Shown piece by piece: positions 2,606-41,938 of a DNA stretch of 64,000 nucleotides. The notes below the pieces were generated by a model that saw only the letters and a program-made list of their open reading frames with translations, ran no database searches and had not been told where the DNA came from. The position numbers and the translations under genes were made by a program. The stretch is from a phage: assembly GCA_033286805.1 (NCBI GenBank), contig GCA_033286805.1_4727.1, one strand, 5' to 3'. Position 1 is the stretch's first letter, and every line of letters starts with the position of its first letter.

Positions 2606-2838
2606 TGCGTCTTATTCCGCGTTTGTTTCCTTAACATGGACACATTCCGCATCGATAGTCACACCGGTAGAACGATGGGTCTCGCTGGTAGAATCAAATC
2701 CGCTGTTGAACAACATGGCGAACGTGTTATTATCCATACGAGCAAAGGTCTCCGCAATACGATCGGGATGAAAATCGGTGCGGTTGATGGTCGATTTCAC
2801 AAAAACTCCTATAAACAATTTAATTATTGGTATTAAGA

Positions 2839-3324
2839 TTAAAGCAGAATCTGCGGACAGCAGCATGATTCGTAACCACCTTCATGTGGTAACGTATTGC
2901 TGGTGTCAGGCCAAACAAGCTGGATACCTGCAACTTTTTTACCATAACGAGCGAAAGCCGATATCGCATACACTTCGTTGAAGGATTCAATATCCTCAAT
3001 TTCGCGCACGTCAAGACGCAAGGTTTCACCCGTACCCTTCAAAGTCAGATTGCCATCGAACGCGCCTAACGGGATGGTCTTTGCCTTCACCATGAAGTTA
3101 CCCAGTTTGTTGATTGCTGAACCAAGGGCAGGGCAGTAACCGGATACGAAGATTTCCGGCATTCCGTGTTCGGTTAGACCAACAGTATACATAAAGCCAG
3201 GCTCGTCGCTTCCCTCATCAGGAGCGACACTGATAATAGCCCATTGCTTTTTCTCGATATATTCTTCGATAAAATCGTCCAGTTTTGAAAAATTGTTTTC
3301 ATTAAGCTTAACTGTGTTACTCAT
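2839..3324 (-). CDS. hypothetical protein (possible DUF4262-like)
   Basis: 161-aa ORF; FMYTVGL...PEIFV segment recalls DUF4262, unverified. Confidence 0.5.
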   Translation of the reverse strand: MSNTVKLNENNFSKLDDFIEEYIEKKQWAIISVAPDEGSDEPGFMYTVGLTEHGMPEIFVSGYCPALGSAINKLGNFMVKAKTIPLGAFDGNLTLKGTGETLRLDVREIEDIESFNEVYAISAFARYGKKVAGIQLVWPDTSNTLPHEGGYESCCCPQILL

Positions 3325-14195: not shown

Positions 14196-14458
14196 TATTG
14201 AATTCCTTTTGATAAGAATAACTGAATATCGGTAAACTGTTCTTCAGGAACATCGTCAGCAGCCGTTAGAACCTTAGAGCCATGTTCATTGAGGTAAGCT
14301 TCCCGTAGACAACGATGACGTCGATTGGCTTCCTGGAACTCAGTGTCCGTCATGTAAACCAGCGTAAACTTCGAACGTTTATTCGGATTGTATCTCTTAT
14401 TACGTTTCTTTGGTTTCTTCGCCATAATAGCCTCGTGAAGGTGGATGGATACACCCAT
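14195..14458 (-). CDS. hypothetical basic protein
   Basis: 87-aa ORF with KKPKKRNKRYNPNKR stretch. Confidence 0.4.
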   Translation of the reverse strand: MGVSIHLHEAIMAKKPKKRNKRYNPNKRSKFTLVYMTDTEFQEANRRHRCLREAYLNEHGSKVLTAADDVPEEQFTDIQLFLSKGIQ

Positions 14459-14473
14459 CCACCTTCCTCCATG

Positions 14474-14995
14474 TTAAAGTGCGTTCAATTCTTCAGGTGT
14501 ACGTACAGTACGCGTGTTGGGATCAACCATTGCTGGCACACCCGCTGGACATTTACGGACATCGATCCGCATCTCCGGTTCGATCGGACGAACGCGATAC
14601 GTTTTGCCATCATCGGTTAACACCGAAATGGTCAACGCTTGGTTCAATTCACTAACGAAGTTCACCAAACGTTGTTGTCCGCCCTTCGACCAGAAGTTAA
14701 GATCGGTTTCTCCATTGAAATAACTGATTCCATCAGCGGTTCCAATCGTGATTTTAACGATACCCGGATAGTCACGAAGAAGAGGTGCCTGATAACCTTC
14801 ATCTTCCGTATCCAGTTTTACCCACACGCCTCCCGTAGACAAACAGTTAACTTCCAAGGCGGTTGGTGCGCTGACTTCCGCCGATGACCAGGTATACATC
14901 GTGCCTAGTTTAGCGTGTCCGGTTTCCAGCTCGCTGTAATCCCAAGCATGTGCTGATGCCGTAACAAATAAAGCCGCAAGAAACAACTTTTTCAT
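14474..14995 (-). CDS. secreted/periplasmic protein (Sec signal peptide)
   Basis: N-terminus MKKLFLAALFVTASAHA with AHA-W cleavage-type site; 173 aa. Confidence 0.6.
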   Translation of the reverse strand: MKKLFLAALFVTASAHAWDYSELETGHAKLGTMYTWSSAEVSAPTALEVNCLSTGGVWVKLDTEDEGYQAPLLRDYPGIVKITIGTADGISYFNGETDLNFWSKGGQQRLVNFVSELNQALTISVLTDDGKTYRVRPIEPEMRIDVRKCPAGVPAMVDPNTRTVRTPEELNAL

Positions 14996-15050
14996 TCTTT
15001 TCGATTCCTATTAAAAGTGACCGATTTCTGTGGTCGAGATTGCTAATAAA

Positions 15051-15903: not shown

Positions 15904-16461
15904 TTACTCCATCCATACTTCTTCGTCGTAATGATTTTCTATCGCATTACGCCAAAAACGCACGGTGTCCAAACTAATCGGCGCATAAAAATGCTGATCA
16001 ACGCCGACATTAAGTCCGTTGGCCTTCGCTAACATACAGCGATGAATATGACCGAATAGATTGAAGTAGCCTGGGTTTCTTTCGCTGGGCTTATGGCATA
16101 GCCAGTAGGATTCGTCATTGCTAATCGGCAACACCAACGGATGTTCATAAACCGCAGCAAACCCCATACCGAGCAATTTATCACGCCATGCTTCAAAGCT
16201 TAATCCTGTTGCTTTGTATGCGTCTTCGTCCCAATTCCCCAATACCAATTGAACCTGGATATCAGAACGAATGGCTTCCACGAACTCGAACTTACCCCAA
16301 TCACCTAAATGCCATAACACACTGTTCTTTGGAAGCTTGTTGATGGCTTTCAGCATATGCTGGTTCATATCGGCGACGCTTGCGAACGGACGGCGTGAAT
16401 ACGTCCATGTACGCTCGCTATCAAAATGGGTATCCGACATAAAGAAGATGGACGGGGTCAT
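15904..16461 (-). CDS. calcineurin-like metallophosphoesterase
   Basis: Ordered motifs MSDTHFD, LGDWG, GNWDE, GHIH typical of metallophosphoesterase fold. Confidence 0.65.
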   Translation of the reverse strand: MTPSIFFMSDTHFDSERTWTYSRRPFASVADMNQHMLKAINKLPKNSVLWHLGDWGKFEFVEAIRSDIQVQLVLGNWDEDAYKATGLSFEAWRDKLLGMGFAAVYEHPLVLPISNDESYWLCHKPSERNPGYFNLFGHIHRCMLAKANGLNVGVDQHFYAPISLDTVRFWRNAIENHYDEEVWME

Positions 16462-16940
16462 TGATCTAATTGCTCCAGAAATGCACGACCCGATTTACTT
16501 GCTTTTAAATGCTGTTCTGCGGAAGTAAGCAGAAGATCGGTTGGTGTATATGCAGCGCTACCTTTCCACGCTGTTTTCAGTTTACCCTTTTCGATACTGA
16601 ACTGAATCAGTTGTTGGGTACCGAAGTTAAGCGTGTTCGTCGCGGCGCTAAATACACCACCCATCATGCTGTAACCAAAGACTTTCACGTTTTCCGTGTA
16701 GAAGTCATTGTCGATCAATTTGTTCTGGAGCTCGAGTTGGTCGGACGGCAGCAATCCCCCATCGAAGACGCTTAAAATACCAGCCAGGCGATACATACTC
16801 ACCTTTCCTGAAACGCCCACCACGTAGTTGCCGTACACGGTTTCTTCCAGTTTAGCAACAACGGTGCGATCGTCGGAGGTTTTCATCGAAACCTCAATAC
16901 CATCACCAACTTCTGTTAACGTTAAATCAACGATACTCAT
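16458..16940 (-). CDS. hypothetical protein
   Basis: 160-aa ORF. Confidence 0.45.
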   Translation of the reverse strand: MSIVDLTLTEVGDGIEVSMKTSDDRTVVAKLEETVYGNYVVGVSGKVSMYRLAGILSVFDGGLLPSDQLELQNKLIDNDFYTENVKVFGYSMMGGVFSAATNTLNFGTQQLIQFSIEKGKLKTAWKGSAAYTPTDLLLTSAEQHLKASKSGRAFLEQLDQ

Positions 16941-17793: not shown

Positions 17794-17827
17794 CTCCTCC
17801 CCAGGAAAGGTGTGGGGAGGAGTTTTT
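17794..17827 (+). terminator. plus-strand hairpin plus T5 run in leader of helicase gene
   Basis: CTCCTCCCC / GGGGAGGAG 9-bp stem followed by TTTTT. Confidence 0.4.
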
Positions 17828-17857
17828 ATCATACATTCTATTAAATCGAGCGCGATT

Positions 17858-19939
17858 ATGTTGGATAGAATCAATCGTTTAATGAACCGAATAACGGTTA
17901 AAAATCAGAGTAACAATACCGTGCATATCGGGGGTATCGATGCCTGGCGTCTTTCAGATGACATTCAGCGAATATGGGGTACCTCCCGATTTATGAAACA
18001 TATGTTTCGTAATTTCTCTTCTAGTGGACTCAGTCTCCACAATTTTTACCTTCCCGATTTCGTTTATATTCTCGAAACGATCATCGAAGCAAAGAATACC
18101 CGCAGTAATAAACGCATGCTGAAACACCTTATTGAGGTACTGCTGCAGGAAACCTGGTTGCAAAATACCACAATCGAGCAACCTGCAATCCTCGATAAAG
18201 CACGCATGAACAAAATGCTAACGCTCTCCCTGTTCGATTATCAAGATGAGTTTATCGACATCTATAACCGTAACGTACCTAAATATCGACTGAAAGGATA
18301 CGTGTGTGCGATGGGTGCGGGTGCTGGTAAAACAATCACCGCATTGGCTTTAAGCGCCGCAATGAACGTCGACGTATTTGTGGTCTGCTGTCCTAAGAAC
18401 ACCATGCGTTCAGCATGGCAATCCGATGTAAACAAAGCCATCGTTGACCCCGCAACAGAAACCGCATTCTGGTCAGATACAATGCCACCATCACAGCTGC
18501 AGAAAAGCGATAAGTATTATTTTCTGCATTACGAGTCGATGGGTTTATTAAACGATGTAATGATCAAGCATAAACGCACCGCGAAGCGAGTTCTTATTGT
18601 TGTTGACGAAAGCCATAACTTCAACGACAAGAACAGCCAACGTTCCCAACGACTGGTTGATCTCGTACAGACGATGCGTCAGACCATGAATGCTGATGTT
18701 CATGTCTTGTTTATGTCGGGTACGCCTGTTAAACAAATGGGTTCTGAGATGATCCCGTGTTTAGGTTGTATTGACCCAATGTTCCAAGGACAGGTGGTCG
18801 ATAGCTTCAAAGCAATTTACGGTTTAACCAGCAGTCGCGCTAACGATATCCTCAGACATCGTCTTGGGTTCATGATGCATGTCGTACCTAAAGAGGCTTA
18901 TCGTAAAACCCGTCCGGAAGTTCAGGACGTTTACGTGAAGCTCCCTAACGGTAGCGATTATACCATCTCAAGTATCCGCGACGACATGGCGATATTTGTA
19001 CGCGATCGGGCAAAGTATTACAAGGATAACTGGGGGCATTACAGAAAGATTTTTGATGACGCCTTGGACTACTATCGTAAGACTATTCGTACCGATGGTG
19101 AACGTAAAGAGCTATCTCGATACGAATCGATTGTTGCTCGTTTCCAGAAAGGTTACGACCCCGTCAGAGACAAAGAAGATGCGATGTTCTGCAACGCGTT
19201 TGAAAAACGTTCCATCATGCCGGTTCTTCCTTCCGATTTAAGGGTTGCTTTCAAAGACGCCAAGAGCGTCATCAAGTACGTTGGGTTGAAAATTCAGGGT
19301 GAAGCGTTGGCACGTGTTCTAGGTGCAGCCCGCATTCGGTGTCATGTCGACATGGTGGAGTACATCGACTTCGAAGGGTACATCAATAACGCCGAAGCCA
19401 AAGTGTTGATCTTCACGTCGTACGTTCAGGTGGTTGAACGCGTCGACAACATGCTTCGTGATGCGGGTTTCTTACCTGAACCCATTTACGGGAAGACCAA
19501 CAAGAACATCAACCAAATACTTGCTCGTCTACGCGATGATCCTGACAGCGGTCCCGCTATCGCAACATTTGATAGCTTAGCTGAAGGGGTTCCGATGCTG
19601 ATGTGTAATGTCGGCCTTTTCCTGAACAATCCATGGCGTTCATCCGATGAAATCCAAGCCATCAGCCGTCTCGATCGTGTAGGGCAAACGCAGCCCGTTC
19701 GGATTTATCGTTTCATGTTGGATACAGGAAGCGAGGGTAACGTTTCTACACGTAGCCACGAAATCATGGAGTTAAGTCGACAGCTTGTTGAAGAAATCAC
19801 GGGTGTCAAATATGTAGTGAACAAGCAAGACGATGTTAACTTGCAAGAAACGTTGGCGATGGAAGGATACGATCAATACGTTACCGTAAACACCACGGAA
19901 TACGATATTAAACCGCGACCTGCATTCTTGGAATGGTGA
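17858..19939 (+). CDS. SF2 (SNF2/DEAD-like) helicase
   Basis: Walker A AMGAGAGKT, DExH box VVDESHN, MSGTP, motif VI QAISRLDRVGQ; track start 17810 is GTG inside hairpin, ATG 17858 preferred. Confidence 0.7.
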   Translation: MLDRINRLMNRITVKNQSNNTVHIGGIDAWRLSDDIQRIWGTSRFMKHMFRNFSSSGLSLHNFYLPDFVYILETIIEAKNTRSNKRMLKHLIEVLLQETWLQNTTIEQPAILDKARMNKMLTLSLFDYQDEFIDIYNRNVPKYRLKGYVCAMGAGAGKTITALALSAAMNVDVFVVCCPKNTMRSAWQSDVNKAIVDPATETAFWSDTMPPSQLQKSDKYYFLHYESMGLLNDVMIKHKRTAKRVLIVVDESHNFNDKNSQRSQRLVDLVQTMRQTMNADVHVLFMSGTPVKQMGSEMIPCLGCIDPMFQGQVVDSFKAIYGLTSSRANDILRHRLGFMMHVVPKEAYRKTRPEVQDVYVKLPNGSDYTISSIRDDMAIFVRDRAKYYKDNWGHYRKIFDDALDYYRKTIRTDGERKELSRYESIVARFQKGYDPVRDKEDAMFCNAFEKRSIMPVLPSDLRVAFKDAKSVIKYVGLKIQGEALARVLGAARIRCHVDMVEYIDFEGYINNAEAKVLIFTSYVQVVERVDNMLRDAGFLPEPIYGKTNKNINQILARLRDDPDSGPAIATFDSLAEGVPMLMCNVGLFLNNPWRSSDEIQAISRLDRVGQTQPVRIYRFMLDTGSEGNVSTRSHEIMELSRQLVEEITGVKYVVNKQDDVNLQETLAMEGYDQYVTVNTTEYDIKPRPAFLEW

Positions 19940-41473: not shown

Positions 41474-41938
41474 TTAAACCAAAGCTGCGATAACGTCGTT
41501 AACATTACGGCCTCGCAACTCTGCCGCTAAACGAATAACCTCATCCAGGGAACGGTTTGTACGAATCTTGGCCACTTTCCAATTTTCAGGATACTGTTCG
41601 AAGTTAAGCAACCAAGTCATTACCTTTGCTTGTTCCATACCGTTGAGTTTGATTGTCGTGCGCGGATTGGCTTTGAACCACTTCTTGCTCAGCTGCGCCA
41701 TACGGCGAACAGGGTAAGCGTAAGCGCGAGTCCAGTCTTTGGACAGATTGTCGAGTAATTCACGGTAGCTGCTGTCGTAGTCTTTGTTGATACGACGTAA
41801 TAACCAGTTGGCGGTCATCTGGTAAAGTTTATCATCTTCACGTAACCGCATACCCGCTACTGCTAAATAAATGATAAGACCTGCGCCCAGGATGAGAGAC
41901 AGGATAAACAGAATTTGGGTTTCTTGTGCTAAAGTCAT
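41474..41938 (-). CDS. membrane protein (N-terminal TM helix)
   Basis: ILFILSLILGAGLIIYLAVAG hydrophobic segment; early-promoter-like motif upstream. Confidence 0.5.
   Translation of the reverse strand: MTLAQETQILFILSLILGAGLIIYLAVAGMRLREDDKLYQMTANWLLRRINKDYDSSYRELLDNLSKDWTRAYAYPVRRMAQLSKKWFKANPRTTIKLNGMEQAKVMTWLLNFEQYPENWKVAKIRTNRSLDEVIRLAAELRGRNVNDVIAALV

What the first reader, a model, noticed from the sequence alone, without database searches (positions are those of the whole stretch)
14474..14995. Phage-encoded protein with a classical Sec signal peptide
MKKLFLAALFVTASAHA followed by W is a textbook signal peptide. An exported or periplasmic protein in a lytic jumbo phage could act in superinfection exclusion, receptor masking or envelope remodelling.
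Basis: seen in the sequence. Interest (0 to 1): 0.45.

Follow-up and report, generated by a model that had tools for sequence, protein, structure and literature searches.

The report
Goslar-type phage exported periplasmic protein gp154
A small gene of a Goslar-like nucleus-forming jumbo phage of E. coli really does begin with a conserved, textbook secretion signal. Its product is almost certainly sent to the host periplasm, but it has no recognisable relatives and its job there is unknown.

Summary
Window 14474-14995 (minus strand) is a 173-codon ORF starting MKK-LFLAALFVTA-SAHA|W. The window is a 96.6% relative of Escherichia phage Goslar, and the ORF is Goslar gp154, annotated "hypothetical protein".

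The gene is real. dN/dS is 0.035-0.087 across Goslar-type genomes, and its protein was detected by LC-MS/MS in Goslar preparations.

The signal peptide is more than chance:
- It is the only real-looking signal-like N-terminus among 87 ORFs in the window; about 0.1% of shuffles reach its score.
- A syntenic homologue only 43-44% identical, in a divergent chimallivirus, has a different signal sequence with the same architecture (MKHVVK-SVIAAALVFSS-SAFA|W).
- Positions -3 and -1 are always Ala, position -2 varies (H/Q/F), and +1 is always Trp.
- There is no lipobox, no twin arginine and no later transmembrane segment. Two cysteines in the mature part are invariant.

The mature protein is 156 aa, pI 4.6 and beta-rich. 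It has no Pfam, PHROG, NCBIfam or PADLOC family, no cellular homologue and no confident fold match. Function is therefore inferred only. My best guess is a periplasmic binding protein acting on the envelope, for example in superinfection exclusion. This is an ordinary kind of phage gene in an interesting phage; interest is modest.

The parts
14474..14995 (-). CDS, 173 aa precursor; orthologue of Goslar gp154 (HOV27_gp154, YP_009820839.1, 'hypothetical protein')
   Evidence: ORF list and sequence. 98.8% aa identity to Goslar. Annotation. dN/dS 0.035-0.087. Protein detected by LC-MS/MS in Goslar.
15006..15009 (-). Shine-Dalgarno-like AGGA, 10 nt upstream of the ATG
   Evidence: Read from the sequence. 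The divergent clade has AAGG 7 nt upstream.
14945..14995 (-). Predicted Sec signal peptide, residues 1-17: n-region MKK (14987-14995), h-region LFLAALFVTA (14957-14986), c-region SAHA (14945-14956). Predicted SPase I cut between Ala17 and Trp18.
   Evidence: Heuristic scan. No lipobox and no RR. In all homologues -3/-1 are always Ala, -2 is H/Q/F, and +1 is always W. The NCBIfam Asr model (positions 1-24 of 119) weakly matches residues 1-24 of the homologues P0003/P0006, a stretch that contains their predicted 21-aa signal peptides. hhalign against F TraK aligns only the two N-termini.
14477..14944 (-). Predicted mature periplasmic domain: 156 aa, 17.2 kDa, pI 4.6, beta-rich with one longer helix (residues ~107-118). 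The best conserved segment is residues 45-94 (64% identity between clades).
   Evidence: No family hit.
14843..14845 (-). Cys51 codon, invariant (motif VNCLSTGG); proposed disulfide partner of Cys149
   Evidence: Alignments. These are the only two Cys in the protein. The disulfide is an inference.
14549..14551 (-). Cys149 codon, invariant
14477..14551 (-). C-terminal tail, residues 149-173. It is modelled with low confidence but conserved (48% identity between clades; G152 P154 A155 M156 V157 P159 T163 P167 E168 E169 invariant). The last residue is always hydrophobic (L/F/M).
   Evidence: A role as a linear binding motif is an inference.
14437..14466 (-). Perfect 12-bp hairpin starting 7 nt after the stop codon (GAAGGUGGAUGG-loop-CCAUCCACCUUC). 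Likely a terminator or 3' stabiliser that closes the transcription unit at this gene.
   Evidence: dG -23.4 kcal/mol, z -4.25. The stem is invariant in 10 Goslar-type genomes, while the loop varies in sequence and length. The sequence is unique in the window. Function is inferred.

Best explanation
The gene encodes a soluble protein that the infected E. coli cell exports to the periplasm.

Proposed steps:
1. Host ribosomes translate the 173-aa precursor in the cytoplasm.
2. The N-terminal 17 residues (MKK / LFLAALFVTA / SAHA) target it to SecYEG.
3. Signal peptidase I (LepB) cuts after Ala17 and releases a 156-aa, acidic, beta-rich protein starting with Trp18.
4. The two invariant cysteines (C51, C149) are probably joined by DsbA.

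Steps 2-4 are inferred from sequence rules and conservation. None was shown experimentally.

What the mature protein does in the periplasm is not established. No catalytic family is detectable, the domain is small, and the C-terminal tail is conserved although modelled with low confidence. I therefore think it most likely acts as a binding or blocking protein on an envelope component. My single best guess (about 0.3) is that it protects the infected or persistently infected cell against secondary infection, or shields progeny from cell debris. That would be superinfection exclusion or receptor/entry masking, analogous to T4 Sp or T5 Llp. The confidence given below refers to the export claim plus 'acts in the envelope', not to that specific role.
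For: - Canonical n/h/c architecture with Ala at -3 and -1, no lipobox, no RR, and no further hydrophobic segment.
- It is the only real-looking signal-peptide candidate among 87 ORFs; the shuffle false-positive rate is about 0.1%.
- The architecture is kept while the sequence diverges. The 43-44% identical syntenic homologues have MKHVVKSVIAAALVFSSSAFA|W. Within Goslar-type genomes the substitutions are L9F, V/I11 and H16Q, which sit in the hydrophobic core or at the tolerant -2 position.
- Both Cys are invariant.
- The gene is under strong purifying selection, dN/dS 0.035-0.087.
- It is better conserved between the two lineages (43-44%) than gp151-153, gp155, gp158 and gp159 (24-39%), though less than the gp157 phosphoesterase and the gp160 helicase.
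- The protein is made: 2 peptides, 15% coverage in Goslar LC-MS/MS (bioRxiv 10.64898/2026.04.21.720040, Table S4).
- Goslar-like phages are mostly known as persistent infections of bacterial isolates, 59 of 60 genomes (bioRxiv 10.1101/2024.12.31.630880). In that setting an exclusion function would make sense, but this is inference.
Against: - No dedicated predictor (SignalP) and no experiment was available.
- The signal is short, at 17 aa with a 10-residue h-region.
- Trp at +1 is unusual.
- The protein was found in purified virion preparations at about 7-17 copies per virion-equivalent. That is 6-30 times more than its immediate neighbours gp151, gp152 and gp155. A purely periplasmic protein would be there only as a contaminant.
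- Nothing supports the specific exclusion or masking role: no hit to any PHROG or PADLOC family and no informative neighbour.
Confidence: 0.72

Rival explanations
1. It is a virion-associated, possibly injected, low-copy protein. The hydrophobic N-terminus would then not be a Sec signal. It could be a membrane-interacting or packaging segment, for example for the early-infection (EPI) vesicle, or a propeptide removed during head maturation.
For: Goslar gp154 was detected in purified virions at about 7-17 copies, similar to vRNAP subunits and the gp160 helicase. Several genes of the same block are clearly virion-associated: gp158 ~930 copies, gp157 ~75, gp147 ~59, gp146 a capsid 'latch'. Its immediate neighbours gp151, gp152 and gp155 are 6-30 times lower.
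Against: The same table contains proteins not thought to be virion parts at higher levels: chimallin ~126, PhuZ ~171, ChmC ~78, thymidylate synthase ~20. Detection at ~11 copies is therefore within contamination range. The N-terminus obeys every SPase-I rule, and does so in a divergent homologue too. The uncharged stretch of 14 residues is too short for a stable membrane anchor. A conserved Cys pair fits an oxidising compartment.
Confidence: 0.12
2. It is a periplasmic lysis-control or lysis-accessory protein. It might be a sensor or antiholin-like factor for lysis inhibition upon superinfection, or an outer-membrane-disrupting helper.
For: It is predicted to be periplasmic. PhiKZ shows MOI-dependent lysis delay and has a lysis regulator (PMC12894885). 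Goslar-like phages persist in colonies. The gene is followed by a strong hairpin and may be the last gene of its unit.
Against: It is not adjacent to any endolysin, holin or spanin gene. Goslar gp148-gp156 and gp158 are annotated only as hypothetical proteins, and in the window no ORF between 2,866 and 41,474 other than the gp160 helicase and one 573-aa ORF has a transmembrane-like segment. It has no lipobox, so it is not an o-spanin, and no TMD, so it is not an i-spanin, u-spanin, holin or SAR protein. No PHROG lysis family hit.
Confidence: 0.1
3. It is not exported at all. The hydrophobic N-terminus is a buried element of a cytoplasmic protein, and the resemblance to a signal peptide is fortuitous.
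For: The h-region is short. No predictor or experiment was run. In the 247-kb contig of a Shigella flexneri assembly (GCA_031658775.1), the A5 run after the ATG is A6. The gene is therefore called from TTG as MFLAAFF..., without the basic n-region. This may show that the n-region is dispensable, or it may be an assembly error.
Against: A chance match is expected in about 0.1% of proteins. Two lineages at 43% identity keep n, h and c regions with different residues, and -3/-1 Ala and +1 Trp are invariant. AlphaFold leaves residues 1-16 unstructured at pLDDT <50 rather than packing them into the domain.
Confidence: 0.06

Closest known systems
Goslar gp154 (HOV27_gp154, YP_009820839.1)
   Same: It is the orthologue: 98.8% aa identity, the same position between gp155 and gp153, and an identical upstream region and downstream hairpin.
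   Different: There are two conservative substitutions (I11V, A57V). Goslar's entry is only 'hypothetical protein', and no publication I could find discusses it.
Phage-encoded Sec-exported periplasmic proteins that block secondary infection, such as T4 Sp (spackle) and P1 Sim (recalled from established knowledge)
   Same: All are small phage proteins with a cleavable signal peptide, made by a virulent or persisting phage and acting outside the cytoplasm.
   Different: There is no sequence relationship: no PHROG hit at E<=0.1. I recall T4 Sp as helical, whereas this protein is predicted beta-rich. No functional test exists.
IalB, invasion-associated locus B protein (PDB 3dtd; Pfam PF06776)
   Different: There is no Pfam hit even at E<=10. 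The model has only pLDDT 59 and a second model failed. Foldseek against the PDB finds nothing. IalB's own function is unknown.
F-type TraK / VirB9-like (TIGR02756, PF06586)
   Same: The divergent homologues give weak sub-threshold hits: 15.6 bits against a cut-off of 124, and 13.6-14.4 bits against 24.8. One BFVD structural neighbour is annotated TraF/TraO/TraN.

Membership tests
Sec-type (SPase I) signal peptide | Positively charged n-region without acidic residues | tested here: met
   MKK (+2) here; MKHVVK or MKHAVK in the divergent homologues.
Sec-type (SPase I) signal peptide | Uninterrupted hydrophobic h-region of about 7-15 residues | tested here: met
   LFLAALFVTA is 10 residues with a mean Kyte-Doolittle value of about 2.6. 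The homologues have SVIAAALVFSS.
Sec-type (SPase I) signal peptide | c-region with small residues at -3 and -1, and no Pro at +1 | tested here: met
   A-H-A|W here. A-Q-A|W and A-F-A|W occur in relatives. Positions -3/-1 are invariant and -2 is free.
Sec-type (SPase I) signal peptide | A dedicated predictor (SignalP) calls it; cleavage and export are shown experimentally | not testable with these tools
   No SignalP here. The published MS table gives only protein-level data.
Lipoprotein (SPase II) signal / o-spanin | Lipobox L-x-x-C at the cleavage site | tested here: not met
   There is no Cys before residue 51 and no lipobox pattern in the first 40 residues.
Tat signal | Twin-arginine motif in the n-region | tested here: not met
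   No RR in the first 20 residues.
Holin / i-spanin / SAR or membrane-anchored exclusion proteins | At least one transmembrane helix of about 19 residues | tested here: not met
   No 19-residue window with mean Kyte-Doolittle >=1.6.
IalB (PF06776) | Match to the Pfam model at or above the gathering score | tested here: not met
   Zero Pfam families for the window protein at E<=1 and E<=10.
IalB (PF06776) | Shared fold with PDB 3dtd | tested here: inconclusive
TraK / VirB9-like | Match to TIGR02756 or PF06586 above the cut-off, or a profile-profile match of the mature domain | tested here: not met
   14-16 bits against cut-offs of 24.8 and 124, and only in the divergent homologues. hhalign aligns only the signal peptides.
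Known phage superinfection-exclusion, lysis or anti-defence families (PHROGs, PADLOC) | Significant HMM match | tested here: not met
   No PHROG at E<=0.1 and no PADLOC model at E<=1.

The most novel reading that the evidence does not exclude
In a nucleus-forming phage that mostly lives as a persistent infection, gp154 could be a dedicated periplasmic factor. It might sense or block incoming phage (exclusion or lysis inhibition). More exotically, it might be delivered through Sec translocons into the lumen of the membrane-bound early-infection vesicle, which is proposed to derive from the inner membrane and, if so, would be periplasm-like in topology. That would explain why traces co-purify with virions. 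Either case would make it the first exported effector described for Chimalliviridae, with a fold that has no characterised relative.
Probability: 0.08. Interest if true: 0.7.

Novelty: new member of a known kind. Interest (0 to 1): 0.3.

Why it matters
Work on chimalliviruses has centred on the cytoplasmic phage nucleus, the EPI vesicle and injected proteins. In the papers I searched I found no description of what these phages do to the envelope or periplasm beyond lysis.

This gene is a conserved, expressed, Sec-targeted protein specific to the Goslar lineage, whose members are overwhelmingly found persisting in bacterial isolates. It is a cheap and well-defined candidate for testing whether such phages exclude competitors or modulate the envelope.

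If it turns out to be an accessory protein of no measurable effect, nothing changes. It is one ORFan among the many hypothetical proteins of this genome.

Tried and rejected
- **Family searches.** Pfam, PHROGs, NCBIfam and PADLOC gave nothing for the window protein.
- **Exhaustive HMMER over 1.84 billion representatives.** This found only the Goslar cluster and one divergent cluster. The two other hits (P0004, P0005) are long ankyrin-repeat proteins matched in multiple stretches, to residues 94-132 in the best stretch. I rejected them as repeat or composition noise.
- **Profile search of 5.8 billion proteins, IMG/VR, JGI metagenomes and GTDB genomes.** These returned only Goslar-type phages and the one divergent lineage. 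There was no cellular homologue. tblastn of both clades against 50,697 phage records found only Goslar.
- **PDB sequence and profile searches.** Marginal matches to FlgK (E 0.035) and a designed ubiquitin fall in the same helix plus DG-hairpin segment. I rejected them as chance.
- **Structure prediction.** The first AlphaFold model is marginal (pLDDT 59, pTM 0.58, the other four models 31-44). A mature-only run failed (pLDDT 38).
- **TraK lead.** Tested by hhalign against F-plasmid TraK and rejected.
- **Promoters and terminators.** The sigma-70/terminator scan showed nothing near the gene.
- **Composition.** Base composition gives no sign of recent acquisition: GC 0.48 against 0.456 for the window.
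- **Literature.** 'gp154' in a chimallivirus paper refers to Erwinia phage RAY, not Goslar. No paper discusses Goslar gp154.

Full report
**Observation.** Window 14474-14995 holds a 173-codon ORF on the minus strand (ATG at 14995-14993, TAA at 14476-14474). It translates to MKKLFLAALFVTASAHAWDYSELETGH.... An AGGA lies 10 nt upstream of the ATG.

**Origin.** A 4-kb stretch around the gene is 96.6% identical to Escherichia phage vB_EcoM_Goslar (237 kb, Goslarvirus, a nucleus-forming chimallivirus). The ORF is the orthologue of Goslar gp154 (HOV27_gp154, YP_009820839.1, 'hypothetical protein'), with 98.8% aa identity. It lies in a long minus-strand run. The order is: gp159 HD hydrolase, gp158, gp157 metallophosphoesterase, gp156, gp155, gp154, gp153, gp152, gp151. 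The run is divergent from the gp160 SNF2 helicase.

**Is it a real gene?** Yes.
- Between the window and Goslar there are 16 synonymous and 2 non-synonymous differences. Across five Goslar-type sequences dN/dS is 0.035-0.087.
- Goslar gp154 was identified by LC-MS/MS with 2 peptides, 15% coverage and 5 spectra (Table S4 of bioRxiv 10.64898/2026.04.21.720040).
- Base composition is like that of its neighbours.

**Is the signal peptide more than chance?** SignalP is not among the tools, so I used the classical rules. The n-region MKK has a charge of +2. The h-region LFLAALFVTA has 10 uncharged residues. The c-region is SAHA, with Ala at -3 and -1. There is no Pro at +1, no lipobox, no twin arginine and no later transmembrane-like window.
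- Of 87 non-overlapping ORFs in the 64-kb window this is the only one that passes.
- Only 25 of 24,600 shuffled proteins reach its score.
- The stronger argument is comparative. All Goslar-type genomes with an intact start keep MKKLFLAA(L/F)F(I/V)TASA(H/Q)A|W. The changes fall only in the hydrophobic core or at the tolerant -2 position.
- The only distant homologues (P0003 and P0006, 43-44% identity) have a different 21-residue signal of the same design, MKH(V/A)VKSVIAAALV(F/L)SSSAFA|W.
- The NCBIfam Asr model (positions 1-24 of 119) weakly matches residues 1-24 of those homologues, the stretch holding their predicted signal peptides. hhalign against F TraK aligns nothing but the two signal peptides.
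- The only two cysteines of the mature part, C51 and C149, are invariant. That fits a disulfide formed in the periplasm, which is an inference.

**Distribution.** The family is tiny.
- A word-seeded search of 5.8 billion proteins, an exhaustive HMMER pass over 1.84 billion representatives and a profile search found only two groups. One is the Goslar-type cluster: two 90% clusters, one with 201 member sequences. The other is a single divergent lineage.
- IMG/VR and JGI metagenomes add only further Goslar-type genomes of 237-249 kb.
- GTDB genomes hold no relative. Among 50,697 phage records only Goslar matches.
- The divergent lineage is a chimallivirus as well. It has DUF7941 proteins and the same gene order (SNF2 helicase, HD, gp158-like, phosphoesterase..., gp154-like...).
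- Between the two lineages gp154 is 43-44% identical. That is more than gp151-153, gp155, gp158 and gp159 (24-39%), and less than the phosphoesterase (50-51%) and the helicase (56-58%).

**The mature protein.** It is 156 aa, 17.2 kDa and pI 4.6. No Pfam, PHROG, NCBIfam or PADLOC family matches the window protein.
- AlphaFold with the five available sequences gave a marginal model: pLDDT 59, pTM 0.58. It has eight beta-strands and a helix at residues 107-118, with the signal peptide and residues 152-173 at low confidence. A mature-only run failed.
- Foldseek finds nothing in the PDB. In BFVD it finds only uncharacterised phage proteins with TM about 0.45-0.5.
- Weak hits to FlgK, TraK and ankyrin repeats all fall on the same helix plus 'DG' beta-hairpin segment. 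I treat them as noise. The TraK lead was tested by hhalign and failed.
- The most conserved stretch is residues 45-94, at 64% identity between clades.
- The C-terminal 25 residues are modelled with low confidence yet are 48% identical between clades, with ten invariant positions and an always-hydrophobic last residue. That pattern suggests a linear binding motif, which is an inference.

**Mechanism.** The sequence shows a precursor with a Sec/SPase-I-type signal. From this I infer SecYEG export, LepB cleavage after Ala17, DsbA oxidation and a soluble periplasmic protein.

The role in the periplasm is open. The gene is not in a lysis cassette and is not next to any membrane-protein gene. The only transmembrane-like N-termini in the window are far away, at 2612-2866 and 41474-41938. 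No catalytic family is detectable, and the tail is conserved although poorly modelled, so I favour a binding or blocking protein acting on an envelope component. Goslar-like phages are found almost only as persistent infections of bacterial isolates, 59 of 60 genomes. My best single guess is therefore exclusion of secondary infection or masking of the entry route, at about 0.3. A lysis-inhibition role is the next option; phiKZ shows MOI-dependent lysis delay.

**The main complication.** In the Goslar virion proteome gp154 is estimated at 7-17 copies per virion. That is similar to vRNAP subunits and well above gp151, gp152 and gp155 (0.3-1.8). Several genes of the block are genuine virion proteins, for example gp158 at about 930 copies and gp157 at about 75. 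A virion-associated role therefore cannot be excluded. However, chimallin (~126), PhuZ (~171), ChmC (~78) and thymidylate synthase (~20) appear in the same preparation at higher levels. Detection at ~11 copies thus proves expression, not packaging.

**Verdict.** The 'Sec signal peptide' reading is well supported but unproven. The functional ideas are untested. This is a lineage-specific ORFan of a familiar kind, a phage-encoded exported protein, already annotated as hypothetical in Goslar. Interest is modest (0.3). It would rise if the protein proved to be an exclusion or lysis-inhibition factor, or an EPI-vesicle lumen protein, of a nucleus-forming phage.

Noticed in passing
window 14437-14466 (minus strand), with 14423-14458: A perfect 12-bp hairpin (dG -23.4 kcal/mol, z -4.25) starts 7 nt after the gp154 stop codon. 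Its stem is invariant in 10 Goslar-type genomes, while the loop varies in sequence and in length. It contains the annotated ATG of gp153 (14458-14456). The loop indels would shift that reading frame, so the annotated gp153 start is probably wrong. The true start is likely the ATG at 14425-14423 (MAKKPKK..., preceded by GAGG). The hairpin is absent from the divergent clade and looks like an unannotated terminator or 3' stabiliser (tblastn of gp153 aligns from residue 12 in L004).
   Followed up: partly
L008 2991-3013 (Shigella flexneri assembly GCA_031658775.1, 247-kb Goslar-like contig): The A5 run directly after the gp154 start codon is A6 in this genome. The ATG-KK start is therefore out of frame and the gene was called from TTG as MFLAAFF..., without the basic n-region. 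This could be a real start-disrupting mutation in a persistently infecting phage or a homopolymer assembly error.
   Followed up: partly
window 16458-16940 (-), 15904-16461 (-), 17810-19939 (+): The homologues of Goslar gp158, gp157 (metallophosphoesterase) and gp160 (SNF2 helicase) are reported in Goslar virions at about 930, 75 and 11 copies. gp158 is one of the ten most abundant unmodelled virion proteins of unknown function. This block is therefore partly a packaged-protein block.
   Followed up: no
window 41474-41938 (-) and 2612-2866 (-): These are the only two ORFs in the window with an N-terminal transmembrane-like segment and no cleavage motif: AQETQILFILSLILGAGLI in a 154-aa ORF at the position of Goslar gp182, and MLLSADSALILIPIIKLFI in an 84-aa ORF. 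They are possible membrane proteins and were not examined further.
   Followed up: no
window 14477-14551 (-), residues 149-173 of gp154: The C-terminal tail is modelled at low confidence but conserved between clades (CxxGxPAMVxP...TPEE), and its last residue is always hydrophobic (L/F/M). It may be a short linear motif for a periplasmic partner such as a PDZ-type protease or chaperone. That idea is speculation.
   Followed up: no
L002 63-4522 and 18233-19117 (Logan SRR33371454 contig, 49 kb): The divergent gp154-bearing phage carries two DUF7941+DUF285 proteins next to its SNF2 helicase and an AcrVA2-like (PF26125) gene. It appears to represent an undescribed chimallivirus lineage that is syntenic with Goslar but only 24-58% identical in protein sequence.
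   Followed up: no
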